From Acidobacteriota bacterium (GTDB lineage: Bacteria; Acidobacteriota; Blastocatellia; RBC074), in the NCBI GenBank assembly GCA_022072205.1, contig JAJVID010000091.1, positions 1,192 to 65,191 of the forward strand: DNA of 64,000 nucleotides. The letters run 5' to 3'. The notes below the pieces were generated by a model that saw only the letters and a list, made by a program, of their open reading frames with translations, was not told the DNA's origin and did no database searches. Position numbers and translations under genes: made by a program. Numbering within the stretch: position 1 is the first letter of the stretch; each line of letters begins with the position of its first letter. Below, in pieces: positions 36,676 to 58,072 of this stretch.

Positions 36676-37761
36676 ATGGCTTGGAACAAATTCTTTCGTT
36701 ATTTGCGTCAACCTGCGATTACGGCTGTCGTTGTGATCGCGCTGTCGCTTGTCGCCGTGACTGCGATTCCGAGCGTGCGCACGCGCGTCAGCTCAAGTCT
36801 GGGTTCGGGCGCCAATCTCTTCCTGTTCGATGATGACGCTTCTGACGAGGCGTCAGGAGAAGCTTCCGCAGAAGCGGCGCCGGAGGGCAAGAACGGCGCG
36901 CCATCCGAAGGCAAGAAACGCAACGGGTTCAAACGAGTAGTGACCGCGCCGGTGCGGTTGTTCGCCCGCCTGTTCAGGAGGAAAGACAACAACGAAATGG
37001 CGATGAAGAAGGCGAGCGAGAAGGATTTTGAGAAGATGAAGATGATCCCGATGAACCGCACGCGGGACGGCATCGCCGACGCCAACAACGGGCTTGCGCC
37101 GGAAGCCACCACCGCCGAAGTCGCGGCGAAGAACCTGTTTGAAGAGGCGATTGAATTGCACGATAGAGGCCGGCTCGATGGTTCGATTGAAAAGCTGGTG
37201 GCCTCGACCGTGCTGCAACCCAATTTCGCCGAGGCTTTCAATCTGCTTGGGGTTTGTTACGACGAGAAAGGCCAATATCGTCTTGCGCAGGAAGAATACA
37301 AGAAGGCCTTGAAGATCGAATCCAACAACGCCCGGTTCCTGAACAATCTCGGCTATTCGTGCTATCTGTCGAACGATTTCGGCAATGCCGTCAAGTATTA
37401 CAACAAGGGGTTGAAGATCACGCCGAACGACCGCCGCATGCACAACAACATCGGATTGGCATACGGACGCAAAGGCGATTACGACAAGGCGAAGCAGCAT
37501 TTCGTGATCGCTGTCGGCGAAAACGGCGCGAATCTCAATCTCGGTTACGTCTACAGCCAGCAGGGCAAATATGAAGACGCGATCAAATATTACGAAGCCG
37601 CGCTTCGCTCACAGCCGCAATCGCTTCCCGCGCTGAGCAATCTGGCCAGCCTTTACGAACGCACGGGCCGGTTGCGCGAGGCCGCCACACTCAACGATCA
37701 ATACAAGAAGTTGGCCGTAGCCGCGCAGCAAAAAGATCAGACTGTTGATCAGGATCGGTAA
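36676..37761 (+). CDS. membrane-anchored TPR repeat protein (TadD-like)
   Basis: N-terminal TM helix, an acidic/low-complexity linker, then about 6 TPR units ([32 protein letters not shown]...). Confidence 0.7.
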
Positions 37762-37763
37762 TC

Positions 37764-37866
37764 GGTGGTTGGTGGTTGGTGGTTGGTGGTTAGCCGTCTT
37801 TTGAGCGGTCAATCATTCATCGCCGATCACTTCCTGCCAACCACCAATCACCAACCACCAACCACC
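37764..37866. repeat. inverted arrays of heptamer GGTGGTT x4 / AACCACC x4 (28-bp stem, 47-nt loop)
   Basis: (GGTGGTT)4 at 37764-37791 pairs with AACCACC AATCACC AACCACC AACCACC at 37839-37866, with one mismatch. It starts 3 nt after the TPR stop and ends 16 nt before the next ATG. Confidence 0.85.
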
Positions 37867-37882
37867 CAGCTTATGTCAGCTT

Positions 37883-39157
37883 ATGAATGAAGCAGTACAA
37901 GCCAGAATGGAAGCTTTTGCGCCTCCGGTTACAGAATCCATTGAGGCTACGGGACTTTCTTTTCAGTTCCTAGCCGATCTGGCGCTCAAGATTTCCGCGA
38001 CTGAAAGCACGCTGACGACGGCCACAATATCCGATCGGATGTGTTTGCCTCTGACGCTGGTCGAACAGATGATGCAGCACCTTTACCGCGAGAAACTGGT
38101 CGAGATTCGCGGGAGCGTTGGGTTCAGCAACAATCGTTACGCGCTGCTCGATCGCGGATGGGATCAGTTGAAGCGCGTCATGGAGATTTCAGGCTACGTC
38201 GGCCCTGCGCCGGTTTCGCTTGCGGCTTACAGCGCGATGATGCGTTCGCAGGCTCAGCCCGAAGAACTGATCGGGCCTGATCAGGTGGCCGACGCGTTTC
38301 ACGATCTGGTTTTGCCCGACAGCTTGCTCCAGACGCTCGGGTTTGCGATCAATTCGCGCCGCAGCCTTTTCATCTCCGGCATTCCCGGCACCGGCAAGAC
38401 CTCCGTCGCCGAACGTATCAACAACGCGCTGCTGACGCCGATCTGGGTTCCTTACGCCGTCGCGATTGATGAACACGTCATCAACATTTACGACGCGCAC
38501 AATCACGACCGCACTCTGGACGAAGATAATTTCGACGTTTTCGACCGCCGCTGGCTGCGTATCGCGCGCCCGTTGATCATCGTCGGCGGCGAGATGACTC
38601 TGGAAAGCACCGACCTGATCTACAATCGCGCGGCGCGTTATTACGAGGCCCCATTCCAGATCAAGGCCAATTGCGGCACGCTGGTGATTGACGATTTTGG
38701 CCGCCAGCGGGTCGAGCCGGAAGAACTGCTCAACCGGTGGATCATTCCGCTCGAACGCAAGGTTGATTTTCTGACTCTGCACACCGGCAAGAAAATCAGC
38801 GTGCCTTTTGAACAACTGGTTGTTTTCTCGACCAACCTCGAACCGAGCCGGTTGGTTGACGAAGCCTTCCTGCGGCGAATGGGTTACCGCGTTCGCGTCG
38901 AACCGCCTTCCGAAGAAACCTACCGCAGAATTTTTGAAAGGTATGCCGAAAACGCTGGCGTCTATTACGACAGATCAGTGCTCGATTACCTGCTTTCGAA
39001 ATATGAGGCTGAAAAGCGCGTGATGAAAGCCTGCGAGCCGCGCGACCTGCTCAGCCGGTTTCTGGACATCTGCCAGTACAAAAATCTGCAGCCGACGCTC
39101 ACCCCGGACCTGCTCGATCTGGCCTGGAATAATTACTTCGGCGTCGCGCACGTTTGA
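37883..39157 (+). CDS. AAA+ ATPase with N-terminal winged-helix-like domain
   Basis: Walker [11 protein letters not shown], Walker [12 protein letters not shown] and the sensor/Arg region [10 protein letters not shown]. The N-terminus [29 protein letters not shown] looks wHTH-like. Confidence 0.7.
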
Positions 39158-54842: not shown

Positions 54843-55658
54843 GTGATGGAGCATTTCTCTTTTCGCCACATCAACAACCTGCAACTGCTGGTCTGCGATC
54901 CGATTGAGCGGGCCGGATTCAAAAACGCTTTCAGCACGCGCGTGGGCGGCGTCAGCCCCTTGCCGGCGGATGCGCTCAGCCTGGGGAATTTCAGCCAGGA
55001 CGAGCGCGAGAACGTGATTGAAAATCGCCGCCGGTTTCTCTCGGCGCTCGACGCGGCGGATTGGCCGCTTGTCACCGCGAAGCAGATTCATTCCGCCGAT
55101 ATTCGTTTTGTCAGCGGCGCGGAAGACGCCGGCAGCGAGCCGACGGCTTGCGACGCGTTGACGGCCAACACTCCGCGGGTTTTGCTGGCGGTTCAAACAG
55201 CCGATTGTCTGCCGATTTTGATTGCCGATGAACGCTCCGGCGCGTTCTCGGCTGTGCACGCCGGATGGCGCGGCACGCTCGCGGGCATCGTCGCACGAAC
55301 GGTTGAGCGGATGCAACAGGAGCATGGTTCGCGCTCCGAAGACCTGCGCGCCGCGTTGGGGCCTGCGATCAGCGCCGCCGTTTTTGAAGTCGGGCCGGAA
55401 GTGCTGGCCGAATTCAGAAACAAATTCGGCTACGCCGAGGAATTGATTTCCGATCAGCAACCGAACGGCAAAGGCCATCTGAATTTGAATCTGGCCAATA
55501 TCCGGCAGTTGATTGACTGCGGCGTGCGCGAGGATCGGATTTACGACAGCGCGCTTTGCACCTGGCTGCGCAACGATCTGTTTTTCAGCTACCGGCGCGA
55601 ACGCGGGGCCGAGAAACCGGCCGGAAGGTTGATGGGGGCGATTGGGAGAGAAGGATAA
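54843..55658 (+). CDS. pgeF: peptidoglycan editing factor PgeF (YfiH/DUF152, laccase-domain protein)
   Basis: AFSTRVGGVS...NFS...NRRRF...QIHSAD...TADCLPIL...HAGWRG. The start is GTG 54843 or ATG 54846. Confidence 0.9.
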   Translation: MMEHFSFRHINNLQLLVCDPIERAGFKNAFSTRVGGVSPLPADALSLGNFSQDERENVIENRRRFLSALDAADWPLVTAKQIHSADIRFVSGAEDAGSEPTACDALTANTPRVLLAVQTADCLPILIADERSGAFSAVHAGWRGTLAGIVARTVERMQQEHGSRSEDLRAALGPAISAAVFEVGPEVLAEFRNKFGYAEELISDQQPNGKGHLNLNLANIRQLIDCGVREDRIYDSALCTWLRNDLFFSYRRERGAEKPAGRLMGAIGREG

Positions 55659-55706
55659 TTTGAGATTTGAGATTTGAGATTTGAGATTGAGATTCGAGAT
55701 TGGAGA
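55659..55706. repeat. tandem heptamer array (TTTGAGA)x4 plus 3 degenerate units
   Basis: Four perfect TTTGAGA units span 55659-55686, followed by TTGAGA, TTCGAGA and TTGGAGA. The array begins at the base after the pgeF stop and ends 7 nt before GTG 55714. Confidence 0.85.
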
Positions 55707-55713
55707 GAAACCT

Positions 55714-57051
55714 GTGAAATCAAAATTACTGTTTATCGCTTTGATTGCTTCATCGTTGTTGATCGCGCCTGCGTTCGCGCTCGTTCAGGACTCCGGCAAG
55801 CAGAAGGCGAATGCCCAGCAGGGTACTGATGCTCCGAAAGATGCGCCCAAAGAGCCGGCGAAAGATTCGGATGAAGACCTGCGCCGCGCCATCCAATCTT
55901 CGGGCGGCAGCGAAACGCAGATCATCACGAACCTCGAAGAGTATCTGAAGAAATATCCGGCGAGCGCTCGTCGCGGAGAGATCGAAAACGAGCTTTACAA
56001 GCTCAGCATGAAACTGCGCGACCGAAACCGCGCCATTATGTACGCCGAAAGGCTGGTAATCAGCGATGAGAATAACATTGACGCGCTGACCAATCTGGTC
56101 ACGATGCTGCGCGAGCGCAAGACGGAAGCCGATCTGATCAAGGCGCTGGCTTACGCCGATGATCTCGTCAAACGATTCGAGCACATCGTTTCCACCAGCG
56201 CCAAGCCGAAGCGCATCAGCTCCGCGCAGTGGCAGGAGCGCAAAGAGCAGGGGCTAGCTTCGGTTTACCTGCTGCGCGGCAAGGTTCACGCCGATCTGGG
56301 CGCCGATGACAAAGCGCGCGCAGATTTGTTGAAGAGCTACAAGTCGGCGCGTCTGGCCGGAGCCGCCGTGTCGCTGGGCGAGCTTGCCGAGAAGCGCAAG
56401 AACATTGATGAGGCGGTTGATTATTATTTGCAAGGCTTCGTCATCTCGCTCAACACCGATGAGCGGATTGATCTGAAATCGCTGCGGCGGAAGATCGGGA
56501 TTCTCTATTCGGCGAAGAACGGGTCGGAGGCCGGGCTGGGCGACCGGATGCTGAAAGCTCACGACGCTTTCGTCAAAGAGCGCGAGGAGCGGATGGCGAA
56601 GCTCGAACCGGCGAATATCAACGAAGGCATCGGCGACCCGCTGAAATTCACGCTGACCAGACTCGACGGCTCGCCGCTGAAGATGGAGGATCATCGCGGC
56701 AAGGTGATCGTGATGAATTTCTGGGCGACGTGGTGCGGCCCCTGCCTGACCGAGATGCCGCTGTTTGAAAAGACCATCGCAAAATACAAAGAAGACAAGG
56801 ATGTCGTCTTTCTGGCCATCACTACGGACGAAGACCGCGAACTGGTCGCGCCATTTTTGAAGCAATACAAATTCAACCTCCCGGTCGCTTACGCCGAATA
56901 CATCAACGATCATTTTGCTATCTCTTCGATCCCGACGACGATCATTCTTGACCGCAAAGGCGAAATCGCTTTCCGACAGGCGGGCTTCAATCCGCGCGAC
57001 GATTTCGTGGTTACGCTGAGCGGGAAGATTGAAGACGCGAAGAAGAGGTAA
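55714..57051 (+). CDS. secreted TPR + TlpA-like thioredoxin-fold protein
   Basis: GTG 55714 gives the signal peptide VKSKLLFIALIASSLLIAPAFA. C-terminal VIVMNFWATWCGPCLTEMP is the redoxin CxxC. Confidence 0.8.
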   Translation: MKSKLLFIALIASSLLIAPAFALVQDSGKQKANAQQGTDAPKDAPKEPAKDSDEDLRRAIQSSGGSETQIITNLEEYLKKYPASARRGEIENELYKLSMKLRDRNRAIMYAERLVISDENNIDALTNLVTMLRERKTEADLIKALAYADDLVKRFEHIVSTSAKPKRISSAQWQERKEQGLASVYLLRGKVHADLGADDKARADLLKSYKSARLAGAAVSLGELAEKRKNIDEAVDYYLQGFVISLNTDERIDLKSLRRKIGILYSAKNGSEAGLGDRMLKAHDAFVKEREERMAKLEPANINEGIGDPLKFTLTRLDGSPLKMEDHRGKVIVMNFWATWCGPCLTEMPLFEKTIAKYKEDKDVVFLAITTDEDRELVAPFLKQYKFNLPVAYAEYINDHFAISSIPTTIILDRKGEIAFRQAGFNPRDDFVVTLSGKIEDAKKR

Positions 57052-57130
57052 GAGGGAGTAGGGAGTGGGGAATGGGGAGTGGGGAGAGGCTACTTGCCCC
57101 CACTCCCCATTCCCCACTCCCTACTCCCTC
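57052..57130. terminator. perfect 33-bp hairpin built from GGGGAGT/GGGGAAT heptamers, exactly filling a convergent intergenic gap
   Basis: 57052-57084 is the exact reverse complement of 57098-57130, with a 13-nt loop. The flanking stop codons end at 57051 (+) and 57131 (-). Confidence 0.9.
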
Positions 57131-58072
57131 CTACCTAATTTCCCGCCTCAATTGCTTCAACACCGAACGCACAGCCGACGCCTGCCTGCTCGTGGGATCG
57201 AGTTGCAGATATTTTTCGTAAGCCTCCACAGCCTCTTTATTGAGAAATTCGCGTTCAAGAGTGGTTCCCAGTAGAAAATAGATTATCGGTTCGGTGTCGT
57301 TGGCCTGGGCAATGGCCAGGCGGAAGTGTTTGATCGCTTCTTCTGGGCGGTTGCGCTCCTGGCAGGCGAGCGCCAGCCCAGTGTGGGCTTCCGGCGAAAC
57401 GCCGCGCGCCTGGGCGAGCGCTGTGCGGTAACTCGACATGGCGTCGTCGTAAAATCCTTGCGTGCGTTTGATGTTGGCGATGACGGTGTGAGCTTCGGGG
57501 AAGACGCCGCCTCTTTCGCGCAATGCGCGGCGGGCTTCGGCGACGGCGTCGTCGTATTCTTCGCTCGACATCAGGCTGCGGGCCAGGCCCACGCGCGCGG
57601 CGGGGAAGCCTGCGGGACGAAGTTTGATGGCGGCGCGGTATTCTTTGATCGCGTCGGCGTGTTTGCCTTTTTCGCGTAACTCTTCGGCGGTTTGAAACGC
57701 CAGTTCGGCTTTGTCCGCCGGGGCCGGAAAAACGATTTGAACTGACTGGCTCCCGTCGGCGGCTAGAACGATCTTCCGCGCAATCTCGCGCCTGCCTTTC
57801 AACCGCGCGCGGATTGTGCGAGCGCCTGCAGGCAGGTTGTTGATCGTCAATTCGCCGCTCGCGGGCACGACGCCGTAACGCAGCGCGTCAACCCAGATGA
57901 TCGTGTCAGGCGCAGTTTTGATGAGAAGCGATGACGTTGGGCCGGATTGAGATGAAGTGGATTGAGATGAAGTGGATTGAGACTGAGTGGATTGAGCCGG
58001 AGTGTTGACGCTGAGCGCAAGTCCCAGCGCCATCACTCCGGCGAGAGATGCTTTTCGGGGCGGTGTCTGCAT
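57131..58072 (-). CDS. secreted PEGA-like + TPR repeat protein
   Basis: Signal peptide, an SQSTS repeats linker, LLIKTAPDTIIWVDALRYGVVPASGELTINNLPAGARTIRARL (PEGA-like) and 4-5 TPR units. Confidence 0.7.
   Translation of the reverse strand: MQTPPRKASLAGVMALGLALSVNTPAQSTQSQSTSSQSTSSQSGPTSSLLIKTAPDTIIWVDALRYGVVPASGELTINNLPAGARTIRARLKGRREIARKIVLAADGSQSVQIVFPAPADKAELAFQTAEELREKGKHADAIKEYRAAIKLRPAGFPAARVGLARSLMSSEEYDDAVAEARRALRERGGVFPEAHTVIANIKRTQGFYDDAMSSYRTALAQARGVSPEAHTGLALACQERNRPEEAIKHFRLAIAQANDTEPIIYFLLGTTLEREFLNKEAVEAYEKYLQLDPTSRQASAVRSVLKQLRREIR
57944..58003. repeat. in-frame 15-nt tandem repeat (4 units) inside 57131..58072
   Basis: GGATTGAGATGAAGT occurs twice exactly, followed by two diverged units. 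It encodes QSTSS/QSTQS repeats on the minus strand. Confidence 0.8.

What the first reader, a model, noticed from the sequence alone, without database searches (positions are those of the whole stretch)
57052..57130. Perfect 33-bp heptamer-built hairpin that exactly fills a convergent stop-to-stop gap
57052-57084 (GAGGGAGTAGGGAGTGGGGAATGGGGAGTGGGG) is the exact reverse complement of 57098-57130, with a 13-nt loop. The element begins at the base after the TAA of the + gene and ends at the base before the stop of the - gene. Both arms parse into 7-nt units (AGGGAGT, GGGGAAT, GGGGAGT). A stem this long and perfect is far beyond a normal intrinsic terminator and has no U-tract. It looks like a member of a repeat family co-opted as a bidirectional terminator or RNA-stability element.
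Basis: seen in the sequence. Interest (0 to 1): 0.6.

Follow-up and report, generated by a model that had tools for sequence, protein, structure and literature searches.

The report
Heptamer-repeat hairpin between two gene ends
The perfect 33-bp hairpin is real; it is one of about 130 palindromes built from 7-base repeats that sit right after stop codons in this sludge acidobacterium, a repeat class already described in Xanthomonas and cyanobacteria whose function is still unknown.

Summary
Positions 57052-57084 and 57098-57130 are a perfect 33-bp inverted repeat around a 13-nt loop. With one mismatch the arms extend to 39 nt and cover both convergent stop codons.

The element is not unique. 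This Blastocatellia genome holds 533 period-7 arrays, and 129 of them pair into hairpins. Fifty-four of those hairpins use the GGGGAGT/GGGGAAT/AGGGAGT units.

Family rules:
- The modal arm length is 32-33 nt.
- The G-rich arm comes first in 123 hairpins and the C-rich arm in 4.
- 70% of hairpins have an edge within about 10 nt of a stop codon.
- Divergent gene gaps are avoided.

This matches the heptamer repeats of Rehm et al. 2015, so it is a new member of a known kind.

At this same site, 12 of 23 orthologous loci carry arrays, built from at least 8 different units. The gene tree implies at least 3 wholesale replacements. One ortholog has a PF05635 (23S-IVS-type) gene inside the palindrome.

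A strong-terminator role is unlikely for the family:
- There is no U-tract.
- 39 of 92 co-directional hairpins fill intercistronic gaps.
- An RNA contig reads through one of them.

The G-first polarity does match this genome's true terminator stems. A REP-like 3'UTR hairpin, probably sensitive to RNase III, is my best reading. It remains unproven.

The parts
57046..57084 (.). G-rich arm: AGGTAAG + AGGGAGT AGGGAGT GGGGAAT GGGGAGT GGGG. Positions 57052-57084 pair perfectly. The arm contains the TAA stop (57049-57051) of the + gene.
57085..57097 (.). Locus-specific 13-nt loop, AGAGGCTACTTGC.
   Evidence: Loops of the 54 family members are unrelated to each other.
57098..57136 (.). C-rich arm, the reverse complement of the G-rich arm. 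Positions 57098-57130 pair perfectly. It contains the stop of the - gene (CTA on the + strand, 57131-57133). It reads as the G-rich arm in the - gene's mRNA.
   Evidence: The RNA contig X25 record 7 (57099-57623) joins this arm to the TPR-gene transcript.
55681..57051 (+). Upstream convergent gene: an exported TPR/ARM + redoxin (TlpA/AhpC-like thioredoxin-fold) protein. The likely true start is the GVG at 55715. Its C-terminus ...AKKR* is conserved in orthologs whether or not an array follows.
57131..58072 (-). Downstream convergent gene: a TPR-repeat protein.
55658..55706 (+). Solo array of the same class (ATTTGAG x7). It starts at the TAA of ORF 54843-55658 and fills the gap up to the redoxin gene.
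   Evidence: The RNA contig X25 record 1 reads through it.
37764..37866 (.). Second heptamer palindrome in the window (GGTGGTT x4 / CCAACCA x4, 45-nt loop). It lies 2 nt after the stop of ORF 36676-37761 and 16 nt before the ATG at 37883, so it is an intercistronic junction.
   Evidence: The RNA contig X25 record 9 spans 37300-38087.

Best explanation
The hairpin is an ORF-less member of a genome-wide class of palindromes whose arms are tandem 7-nt (sometimes 8-nt) repeats. This is the class described for Xanthomonas and Nostoc by Rehm et al. 2015, and it overlaps the cyanobacterial STRR repeats. Shown: the class has a modal arm length of about 32-33 nt, puts the G-rich arm first on either strand, and starts within a few nt of stop codons. 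Each copy has its own mosaic of unit variants and its own loop. At this very site, related species carry palindromes built from other units, and one carries a PF05635 (23S-rRNA-IVS-type four-helix-bundle) gene inside the palindrome. So the site is repeatedly rewritten rather than slowly evolving. Inferred: the element is transcribed into the 3'UTRs of both convergent mRNAs. In each mRNA it folds into a 33-39-bp stem that begins at the stop codon. It then acts like an E. coli REP element. It blocks 3'-to-5' exonucleases and partly limits read-through into the opposing gene, but it is not a canonical, efficient intrinsic terminator. A perfect duplex of this length should also be a substrate for the genome's RNase III, as IVS stems are, and this may set the final 3' ends. 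Its presence here probably owes more to the still unknown process that spreads these palindromes than to selection for a terminator at this particular gene pair.
For: Family membership:
- Period-7 arrays with at least 4 copies number 426, against 53 for period 6 and 60 for period 8.
- There are 129 hairpins and 275 solo arrays, and 54 hairpins use this unit family.
- The modal arm length is 32-33 nt.

Placement:
- 90 of 129 hairpins have an edge within -10 to +12 nt of a stop codon, against 21.6% for random placements.
- In co-directional contexts, the distance from stop to stem base is within +/-8 nt in 63 of 92 cases.
- Divergent gaps hold 4 of 107 intergenic hairpins, against 13.9% of all gaps.

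Polarity:
- The G-rich arm comes first in 123 hairpins and the C-rich arm in 4.
- Non-repeat terminator-like stems in this genome show the same bias: 47:8 with a T-tract (p = 8e-8) and 152:91 without.

Transcription:
- An RNA contig joins the arm 57099-57130 to the TPR gene.

Rewriting of the site:
- 12 of 23 orthologous loci have an array starting -1 to +12 nt after the stop, and at least 8 units are used.
- The sister taxon L001 (99/98 support) has an octamer palindrome instead.
- L004 and L006 have nearly identical proteins but different units.

PF05635 link:
- L005 has a PF05635 ORF (E = 6.8e-30) between the arms at this site.
- About 26 of 33 PF05635 genes in the genus have a G-rich array on the left and the complementary C-rich array on the right.
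- Only 0.1% of random segments have arrays on both sides.

Enzymes and precedents:
- RNase III and Rho genes are present.
- IVS stems of 28 bp are cut mid-stem by RNase III (PMC4990558).
- REP325 acts as a partial terminator and an mRNA stabiliser inside an operon (preprint 10.64898/2026.03.23.713779).
Against: - No 3'-end or half-life data exist for this organism. The RNA evidence consists of k-mer contigs that break in the repeat, so stabilisation, partial termination and RNase III cleavage are all inferred.
- Rehm et al. found no regulatory role in Xanthomonas.
- The site-replacement pattern and the genus-restricted, patchy abundance (8 to 635 hits among congeners) fit a selfish or neutral element equally well.
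- RNase III cleavage could destabilise the upstream mRNAs rather than stabilise them, as in lambda sib-type retroregulation (my own knowledge).
- The G-rich arm could fold into a G-quadruplex instead of pairing with the C-rich arm.
Confidence: 0.55

Rival explanations
1. Selfish or neutral passenger. The palindrome has no host function. It is deposited and replaced by an unknown propagation process, possibly linked to PF05635 cassettes. It survives only where it does no harm, namely directly after stop codons and not in promoter regions.
For: - The family occurs in bursts restricted to the genus: 8-10 hits in G003 and G005, 635 in G006, and about 0 outside the genus.
- There were at least 3 wholesale replacements at this one site within an 8-species clade.
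- 9 of 22 orthologous loci manage without any array.
- Hairpins also occur in intercistronic gaps and, by my crude gene calls, inside 20 ORFs.
- Rehm et al. found no regulatory role.
Against: - Tolerance alone does not predict a start within 0-8 nt of the stop when hundreds of nt of spacer follow.
- It also does not predict the 123:4 polarity shared with true terminator stems.
- There are no target-site duplications, no array-flanked Y1 transposase, and no conserved full-length consensus. No known mobility mechanism fits.
Confidence: 0.3
2. An efficient factor-independent bidirectional transcription terminator.
For: - The element lies between convergent genes and has a very stable stem.
- G-first polarity matches canonical terminator stems.
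- Canonical stem-plus-T-tract terminators are rare in this genome, at 2.8% of 3' flanks, so other structures may take over termination.
- Array-less orthologs L008 and L010 have a short GC hairpin in this gap.
Against: - There is no U-tract in either direction, and only 13% of family hairpins have a T-rich tail.
- Convergent gaps are not enriched.
- 39 of 92 co-directional hairpins leave 25 nt or less before the next start codon.
- An RNA contig reads through the hairpin at 37764-37866.
Confidence: 0.12
3. A G-quadruplex element. The G-rich arm (GGG-AGTA-GGG-AGT-GGGG-AAT-GGGG-AGT-GGGG) folds into a G4 in DNA or RNA and acts through that structure, as Rehm et al. proposed.
For: - The arm has five runs of three or more G, and the family prefers about 4-5 units.
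- Related units form G4 structures in vitro (PMC4692102).
Against: - Most unit families in this genome cannot form canonical G4s, yet they obey the same rules. Examples are GATTGCG (the largest family, 113 arrays), GGTGGTT, AGAAGAC, ATTTGAG and, in relatives, AAAGTAA.
- In a hairpin, the perfectly complementary C-rich arm competes with G4 folding.
Confidence: 0.08
4. A DNA- or RNA-level binding site for a dedicated protein (PF05635 four-helix-bundle pentamers), or a cruciform that marks the site for renewal. On this reading the hairpin is the footprint of a new kind of writing system.
For: - PF05635 genes are flanked by a G-rich array and its C-rich complement in about 26 of 33 cases, whatever the gene's strand, and the units cover every major family of this genome.
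- PF05635 sits at the orthologous site in L005.
- The fixed arm length of about 32-33 nt suggests a ruler.
- A hairpin's own arms match better than arms from other loci (median 18 vs 14 nt, p = 2e-6).
Against: - G002 is a 9-contig genome with 298 GGGGAGT hits, yet none of its 5 PF05635 genes is flanked by GGGGAGT.
- G011 has a GGGGAGT-flanked PF05635 gene but no dispersed copies.
- PF05635 has no known nucleic-acid activity.
Confidence: 0.15
5. An assembly artefact, such as a chimeric fold-back join.
For: The palindrome is perfect, and k-mer assemblers do break at it.
Against: - Four independent studies support both flank-arm junctions, and one contig spans 56850-57127.
- The same architecture appears in hundreds of loci and in long-read assemblies.
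Confidence: 0.01

Closest known systems
G-rich heptameric repeats of Xanthomonas (GGGAATC) and Nostoc (GGGGA(C/T)T), including their convergent 'inverted repeat' pairs (Rehm et al. 2015, PMC4692102). These overlap the cyanobacterial STRR repeats (Mazel et al. 1990, cited from my own knowledge).
   Same: - The units are 7 nt long and of the GGG(G)ANT type.
- About four units are preferred.
[quoted passage not shown]
- Paired convergent arrays can form stem-loops (70-75 pairs per Xanthomonas genome).
- Divergent gaps are depleted.
- The repeats are transcribed.
- Length and sequence vary widely between close relatives at the same gene pair.
   Different: - The phylum differs (Acidobacteriota, class Blastocatellia).
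- Many co-existing unit families are present, most of them unable to form G4s.
- Octamer versions exist in relatives.
- About a quarter of all arrays are in hairpin form.
- The PF05635 link and the site-replacement pattern are not in that paper.
REP/BIME elements of E. coli (for example REP325; preprint 10.64898/2026.03.23.713779).
   Same: - Both are abundant extragenic palindromes in 3'UTRs and intercistronic gaps.
- Neither is a canonical terminator.
- REPs are proposed or shown to act as partial (Rho-assisted) terminators and as stabilisers of the upstream mRNA.
- Positions vary between strains.
   Different: - REPs share one conserved imperfect consensus of about 35 nt and are mobilised by RAYT (Y1) transposases.
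- Here each copy has its own unit mosaic and loop.
- The three Y1 transposase genes have no arrays nearby.
- The stems are perfect and 2-3 times longer.
ORF-bearing 23S rRNA intervening sequences (Coxiella, Leptospira) that encode S23p/PF05635 (PMC4990558).
   Same: Both have a long terminal-inverted-repeat stem (28 bp in Coxiella) with a PF05635 gene in the loop. IVS stems are RNase III substrates, and IVSs have a sporadic, selfish-looking distribution. The ortholog L005 and the loci C7 and C119 of this genome have that same architecture, with tandem-repeat arms.
   Different: The window element has no ORF (13-nt loop). It lies between protein-coding genes, not in 23S rRNA. IVS stems have not been described as tandem-repeat arrays.
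Rho-independent (intrinsic) terminators, including bidirectional ones between convergent genes.
   Same: Both are stable GC-rich stems just after gene ends. The G-rich 5' arm and C-rich 3' arm polarity is shared with this genome's T-tract hairpins.
   Different: The stem is 33-39 bp rather than 5-15 bp, the loop is 13 nt, and there is no U-tract. The family also occurs inside operons.
MITEs and Rickettsia palindromic elements.
   Same: These are also short palindromic repeats dispersed in many copies.
   Different: There are no target-site duplications, no conserved internal sequence, and no identifiable parent transposon.

Membership tests
Heptameric G-rich SSR arrays / inverted pairs (Rehm et al. 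2015; STRR-like) | Tandem 7-nt units of the GGG(G)ANT type | tested here: met
   TRF finds period 7 with 4.7 and 4.4 copies. The units are AGGGAGT, GGGGAAT and GGGGAGT.
Heptameric G-rich SSR arrays / inverted pairs (Rehm et al. 2015; STRR-like) | Preference for about four units | tested here: met
   The arm is 33 nt long. The genome-wide mode is 32-33 nt for hairpin arms and 31-34 nt for solo arrays.
Heptameric G-rich SSR arrays / inverted pairs (Rehm et al. 2015; STRR-like) | [quoted passage not shown] | tested here: met
   The distance to both stops is 0 nt. Across the family, 70% have an edge within -10 to +12 nt of a stop, against 21.6% for random placements.
Heptameric G-rich SSR arrays / inverted pairs (Rehm et al. 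2015; STRR-like) | Convergent paired arrays, one on each strand, able to form a stem-loop | tested here: met
   There are 129 such pairs in the genome.
Heptameric G-rich SSR arrays / inverted pairs (Rehm et al. 2015; STRR-like) | Under-represented between divergent ORFs | tested here: met
   4 of 107 intergenic hairpins lie in divergent gaps, against 13.9% of all gaps.
Heptameric G-rich SSR arrays / inverted pairs (Rehm et al. 2015; STRR-like) | Transcribed | tested here: met
   An RNA-run contig covers 57099-57623, joining the arm to the TPR gene. Caveat: these are contigs of a low-depth RNA run, and DNA carry-over is not excluded.
Heptameric G-rich SSR arrays / inverted pairs (Rehm et al. 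2015; STRR-like) | G-quadruplex formation by the G-rich strand in vitro | not testable with these tools
   The sequence has five runs of three or more G, so it is G4-competent on paper. CD spectroscopy would be needed.
Intrinsic (Rho-independent) terminator | Short GC-rich stem (about 5-15 bp) with a 3-8-nt loop | tested here: not met
   The stem is 33-39 bp and the loop is 13 nt. The scan does not call it.
Intrinsic (Rho-independent) terminator | U-tract directly after the stem | tested here: not met
   The tails are CCTACCTAATTTCC on the + strand and CTTACCTCTTCTTC on the - strand.
Intrinsic (Rho-independent) terminator | Transcript 3' ends at the site | tested here: inconclusive
   RNA contigs end at 57058 (X25, X28) and start at 57099 (X25). 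However, k-mer contigs break in palindromic repeats whether or not an RNA end is there.
REP/BIME | One conserved imperfect-palindrome consensus shared by all copies | tested here: not met
   The 54 family hairpins each have a different unit mosaic and an unrelated loop.
REP/BIME | Associated RAYT (Y1) transposase flanked by the repeats | tested here: not met
   There are three PF01797 hits, and none has a 6-9-nt-period array of this class within 1.2 kb.
REP/BIME | Extragenic 3'UTR or intercistronic location | tested here: met
REP/BIME | Stabilises the upstream mRNA and/or partly terminates transcription | not testable with these tools
   This needs half-life and 3'-end measurements.
MITE | Target-site duplication flanking the terminal inverted repeats | tested here: not met
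   Flanking direct repeats of 3 nt or more occur at 8.5% of hairpins, against 15.3% of shifted controls.
MITE | Conserved internal sequence derived from a parent transposon | tested here: not met
   The loops are unrelated.
IVS-type PF05635 element | PF05635 ORF in the loop of a long inverted-repeat stem | tested here: not met
   The loop here is 13 nt and holds no ORF. The feature is met at the orthologous site in L005 (E = 6.8e-30) and at C7 and C119 of this genome.
IVS-type PF05635 element | Inserted in helix 25 or 45 of 23S rRNA | tested here: not met
   The element lies between two protein-coding genes.
IVS-type PF05635 element | Stem cleaved by RNase III | not testable with these tools
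   The rnc gene is present. A perfect duplex of 33 bp exceeds the roughly 22 bp that RNase III needs (established knowledge).
Phase-variable simple sequence repeat (contingency locus) | Repeat-number variation between strains that switches a gene on or off | tested here: not met
   A strain with 6 SNPs in the 200-nt flank has unchanged arms (X8 record 25). The position after two stop codons cannot shift a reading frame or alter a promoter.

The most novel reading that the evidence does not exclude
These palindromes may be the ORF-less form of an undescribed, IVS-like element class associated with PF05635 four-helix-bundle genes. An unknown process that leaves no target-site duplication and uses no recognisable transposase would repeatedly write a pair of mirror-image arrays, about 32-33 nt long and made of 7-8-nt units, onto the same stop-adjacent sites, always with the G-rich strand pointing inwards. 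New unit families would overwrite old ones. The polarity, the fixed arm length, the better match between a hairpin's own arms and the locus-specific loops would all follow if both arms were synthesised together from one template at a break or hairpin. That would be a new kind of sequence-writing or mobility mechanism.
Probability: 0.2. Interest if true: 0.8.

Novelty: new member of a known kind. Interest (0 to 1): 0.4.

Why it matters
On its own, this hairpin is an ordinary member of a repeat class published in 2015 and seen many times in this scan. It should not be annotated as a terminator or as a new RNA.

The class still lacks any explanation for how it arises or what it does, and this locus is an unusually clean natural experiment. 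One conserved convergent gene pair carries at least eight different repeat units across 23 species. One ortholog holds a PF05635 gene inside the palindrome. Sister taxa differ completely. This shows turnover by replacement at a fixed site.

Together with the terminator-like G-first polarity, the locus gives concrete, testable handles on both origin and function. The organism is common in wastewater reactors, so material for Term-seq and long-read population studies is available.

Tried and rejected
1. Outer-to-inner polarity of unit variants, with TAG-bearing AGGGAGT units on the outside. Rejected: the A-first fraction is about 0.33 at every position.

2. The idea that the array overwrote the gene's C-terminus and supplies its stop codon. 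Rejected for this locus: the C-terminus ...AKK(R/K)* and the stop position are conserved with or without arrays.

3. A MITE-type origin. There is no target-site-duplication signal and no shared loop.

4. A REP/RAYT-type system. The Y1 transposases are not flanked by arrays.

5. The prediction that a genome rich in unit X must hold a PF05635 gene flanked by X. Not met for G002, and apparently not for G006 or G007. Conversely, G011 has the cassette without dispersed copies.

6. A known RNA family. Rfam gives only sub-threshold matches to microRNA-precursor models, which are generic long hairpins.

7. Mapping RNA 3' ends. Only Logan contigs were available, and they break in the palindrome.

8. 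Strain-level repeat-number variation. None was seen. The apparent loop variant in X8 and X13 is the paralog C7:11134, which has the same 33-nt arm and the loop aggtcttc.

9. A literature search for heptanucleotide repeats in Acidobacteria found nothing.
Full report
**Observation.** The sequence is as described. Positions 57052-57084 and 57098-57130 are exact reverse complements separated by 13 nt. The + ORF 55681-57051 is a TPR/ARM plus redoxin/TlpA-like protein (Pfam Redoxin 2e-18) and ends with TAA at 57049-57051. The - ORF 57131-58072 is a TPR protein and ends at 57131-57133. So the perfect stem fills the stop-to-stop gap to the base. The complementarity continues outwards: the arms 57046-57084 and 57098-57136 are 39 nt long with one mismatch. 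Both stop codons and the final AGG codon of each gene are therefore part of the palindrome. TRF reports period 7 in both arms. As RNA the region folds at -94 kcal/mol, with z = -12.9 against dinucleotide shuffles. No T-tract follows either arm, and the consensus terminator scan ignores it. Rfam offers only sub-threshold matches to microRNA-precursor models, which are generic long hairpins.

**Not an artefact.** The organism occurs in bioreactor and activated-sludge metagenomes from at least eight studies. Contigs from four of them run from the unique flanks into both arms. One contig (X8 record 25) spans 56850-57127 without a gap. It carries six SNPs in the coding flank but has unchanged arms. 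An apparent loop variant in X8 and X13 is a paralogous locus, C7:11134, with the same 33-nt arm and a different loop.

**It is one of a large family.** The window lies in a 6.47-Mb, 57.5% G+C assembly of a Blastocatellia (Acidobacteriota) bacterium.
- Period-7 tandem arrays with at least 4 copies number 426, against 53 for period 6 and 60 for period 8.
- They fall into a few unit families: GATTGCG 113, GGGGAGT 92, GGTGGTT 61, AGGGAGT 38, and others.
- Of 533 arrays with at least 3 copies, 258 pair up as 129 hairpins and 275 are solo.
- Fifty-four hairpins use the GGGGAGT/GGGGAAT/AGGGAGT units of the window element.
- Two other members lie in the window. One is a GGTGGTT hairpin at 37764-37866. 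The other is a solo ATTTGAG x7 array at 55658-55706, which begins at the stop of the gene upstream of the redoxin gene.

**Rules of the family.**
1. Arm length has a sharp mode at 32-33 nt, about 4.6 units. Solo arrays show the same mode. This is not the geometric decay that slippage would give. The window's arms have exactly the modal length.
2. The G-rich arm comes first in 123 hairpins and the C-rich arm in 4, with 2 ties. This property reads the same on both strands.
3. Ninety of 129 hairpins have an edge within -10 to +12 nt of a stop codon of a gene reading into them, against 21.6% for random placements in intergenic DNA. In co-directional contexts the stem base is within +/-8 nt of the upstream stop in 63 of 92 cases, often with hundreds of nt of spacer on the far side.
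4. Divergent gaps are avoided: 4 of 107 intergenic hairpins, against 13.9% of gaps. Convergent gaps are not enriched: 11 of 107, against 13.6%.
5. Each copy has its own order of unit variants and an unrelated loop, so there is no master copy. A hairpin's two arms still match each other better than arms from other loci, with a median perfect run of 18 vs 14 nt (p = 2e-6). The window's 33-nt perfect stem is in the upper tail.
6. There is no target-site duplication.

These gene-context numbers rest on my own crude ORF-based gene caller, which gave 4668 genes and 87% coding.

**Already described.** Rehm et al. 2015 (PMC4692102) reported the same features for GGGAATC in Xanthomonas and GGGGA(C/T)T in Nostoc:
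- a preference for four units;
- depletion between divergent ORFs;
- 70-75 convergent inverted pairs per Xanthomonas genome that could form stem-loops;
- transcription of most repeats;
- strong length and sequence variation between close relatives;
- no identified function.

A full-text search found nothing for Acidobacteria. The window element is therefore a new member of a known kind. Earlier notes of this scan describe the same class in this genome and in many others. I treated them as leads and re-tested what I used.

**What happens at this site in relatives.** I fetched 22 orthologous loci.
- Including the window, 12 of the 23 loci have a 7- or 8-nt array that starts -1 to +12 nt after the redoxin gene's stop.
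- At least eight different units are used: the octamer GGGGACAA (L001, L002, L003, L005), GGAATGC (L004), GGGGCGA (L009), GAGGGATG-like (L012, L013), GGGGAGT-type (L014), AGTACAA (L015) and AAAGTAA (L018).
- The protein's C-terminus (...AKKR*) and the stop position are conserved whether or not an array follows. So the arrays begin after the native stop and do not supply it.
- Array-less relatives (L008, L010) have a short ordinary GC hairpin in a gap of about 29 nt.

A maximum-likelihood tree of the redoxin proteins places the window as sister to L001 (99/98 support), and L001 carries the octamer palindrome. The octamer occurs in all three sub-branches of the 8-species clade and is probably ancestral there. 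L014 has the window's unit family but lies in another sub-branch. L004 and L006 are almost identical in protein (branches 0.015 and 0.029) yet carry different units. This needs at least three wholesale replacements at one fixed site. Point mutation or slippage cannot do that.

**Link to PF05635.** In L005 the octamer palindrome contains a 130-aa ORF that matches PF05635 (23S rRNA intervening-sequence protein, E = 6.8e-30; weaker match to bAvd). The order is G-rich arm, ORF, a short G-rich arm plus loop, then the C-rich arm.

The window's genome has three strong PF05635 genes:
- C7:56985 lies between AGAAGAC x3 and TCTTCTG x8.
- C119:7024 lies between two GGGGAGT-family hairpins, the same unit family as the window element.
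- C44:1303 has GGTGTCA x3 on one side only.

Across seven congeners and G011, about 26 of 33 PF05635 genes have a G-rich array on the left and its C-rich complement on the right, whichever strand the gene is on. The units cover every major family of this genome. Only 0.1% of random 320-nt segments have arrays on both sides. So ORF-bearing and ORF-less palindromes share one architecture.

A simple driver model did not pass my test. G002 is a 9-contig genome with 298 GGGGAGT hits, yet none of its five PF05635 genes is flanked by GGGGAGT. G011 has a GGGGAGT-flanked PF05635 gene, but all of its GGGGAGT arrays sit on one 15.8-kb contig, which may be an acquired island or a mis-binned contig. Abundance of the unit family is genus-restricted and patchy: 8 to 635 hits among congeners and about 0 outside the genus.

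**Function.**

Evidence against an efficient terminator:
- There is no U-tract here, and only 13% of family hairpins have a T-rich tail.
- In 39 of 92 co-directional cases, 25 nt or less remain before the next start codon.
- The hairpin at 37764-37866 lies 2 nt after one stop and 16 nt before the next ATG. An 803-nt contig of an RNA run spans it from gene to gene.

Evidence for an RNA-level role:
- Non-repeat perfect stems in this genome's 3' flanks are also G-first: 47:8 when followed by a T-tract (p = 8e-8) and 152:91 otherwise. So the heptamer hairpins share the polarity of true terminator stems.
- They abut stop codons far more tightly than tolerance alone predicts.
- An arm of the window element is contiguous with the TPR transcript in an RNA run.
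- Canonical T-tract terminators are rare: 2.8% of 3' flanks, against 0.6% of 5' flanks and 0.1% of shuffles.
- Rho and RNase III genes are present.

The best analogue is the E. coli REP element. It is intercistronic or 3'-terminal and acts as a partial, Rho-assisted terminator and a stabiliser of the upstream mRNA (preprint 10.64898/2026.03.23.713779).

A perfect 33-39-bp duplex should also be cut by RNase III, as 28-bp IVS stems with a PF05635 ORF in the loop are (PMC4990558). Whether that would stabilise or destabilise the two mRNAs cannot be said.

The stem starts at the stop codon, so a terminating ribosome must melt roughly its first 10-12 bp (established ribosome footprint; inference). 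That couples hairpin formation to translation of both genes.

All of these functional steps are inferred. Only the anatomy, the placement statistics, the polarity and the transcription of one arm are shown.

**Verdict.** The element belongs to a published but unexplained repeat class. A terminator reading is not supported as stated, and a REP-like 3'UTR hairpin that may be RNase III-sensitive is the best available mechanism (confidence about 0.55). A purely selfish or neutral passenger is the main rival (about 0.3). The most novel reading not excluded is a PF05635-associated, IVS-like system that repeatedly writes mirror-image arrays onto stop-adjacent sites (about 0.2).

Noticed in passing
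window 57944-58004: A 15-nt tandem repeat (GGATTGAGATGAAGT, about 4 copies, i.e. 5 codons per unit) lies inside the 5' part of the TPR gene. An RNA-run contig (X25 record 8) lacks exactly one 15-nt unit at 57971. This suggests an in-frame copy-number polymorphism between strains.
   Followed up: no
window 55658-55706: A solo heptamer array (ATTTGAG x7) starts at the TAA of ORF 54843-55658 and fills the gap to the redoxin gene. The ORF-list start at 55681 (TTG) lies inside the array. The likely true start is the GTG at 55715, followed by a signal-peptide-like sequence. An RNA contig reads through the array.
   Followed up: partly
window 37764-37866: A GGTGGTT/CCAACCA heptamer hairpin (45-nt loop) fills an intercistronic junction in the extension of the Tad pilus locus. 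It lies 2 nt after one stop and 16 nt before the next ATG. An 803-nt RNA-run contig spans it.
   Followed up: partly
G000 C7:11134 (outside the window): A second locus has exactly the same 33-nt arm (AGGGAGTAGGGAGTGGGGAATGGGGAGTGGGGA) as the window hairpin but a different 8-nt loop and different flanks. Chance identity among 54 mosaics is possible, as is copying between loci.
   Followed up: no
G011:C69:900-7600 (locus L116): In a genome of another genus that otherwise lacks GGGGAGT arrays, one 15.8-kb contig carries four GGGGAGT-family palindromes. One of them encloses a PF05635 gene. This is either a horizontally acquired island or a mis-binned contig.
   Followed up: partly
G013 (same family, other genus): G013 has 123 hits to the control pattern, which is the unit read backwards (GGGGTGA-type heptamer), and none to GGGGAGT. 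Different genera appear to have their own dominant units.
   Followed up: no
L009, L011, L023: These records are titled 'uncultured Heliobacteriaceae/Heliomicrobium' but encode redoxin orthologs that nest inside the Blastocatellia clade with 66-69% identity. The record taxonomy is probably wrong.
   Followed up: no
G000, about 20 loci genome-wide: By my crude gene calls, about 20 of 129 heptamer hairpins lie inside ORFs. Some may be in-frame insertions like the glgP case noted earlier in this scan. Others may be gene-calling errors.
   Followed up: no
L005 2957-3525; also L006, L014, L018-L023: In several relatives the TPR gene that faces the redoxin gene in the window is absent, and the SLT transglycosylase gene is the convergent neighbour instead. 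The palindrome site persists despite this change of neighbour.
   Followed up: no
G002:C4:1105647-1105752 (locus L115): This is a rare C-first palindrome (CCATTCT x4.7 ... AGAATGG x4.9). It lies beside a weak PF05635-like hit and is one of the few exceptions to the G-first rule.
   Followed up: no
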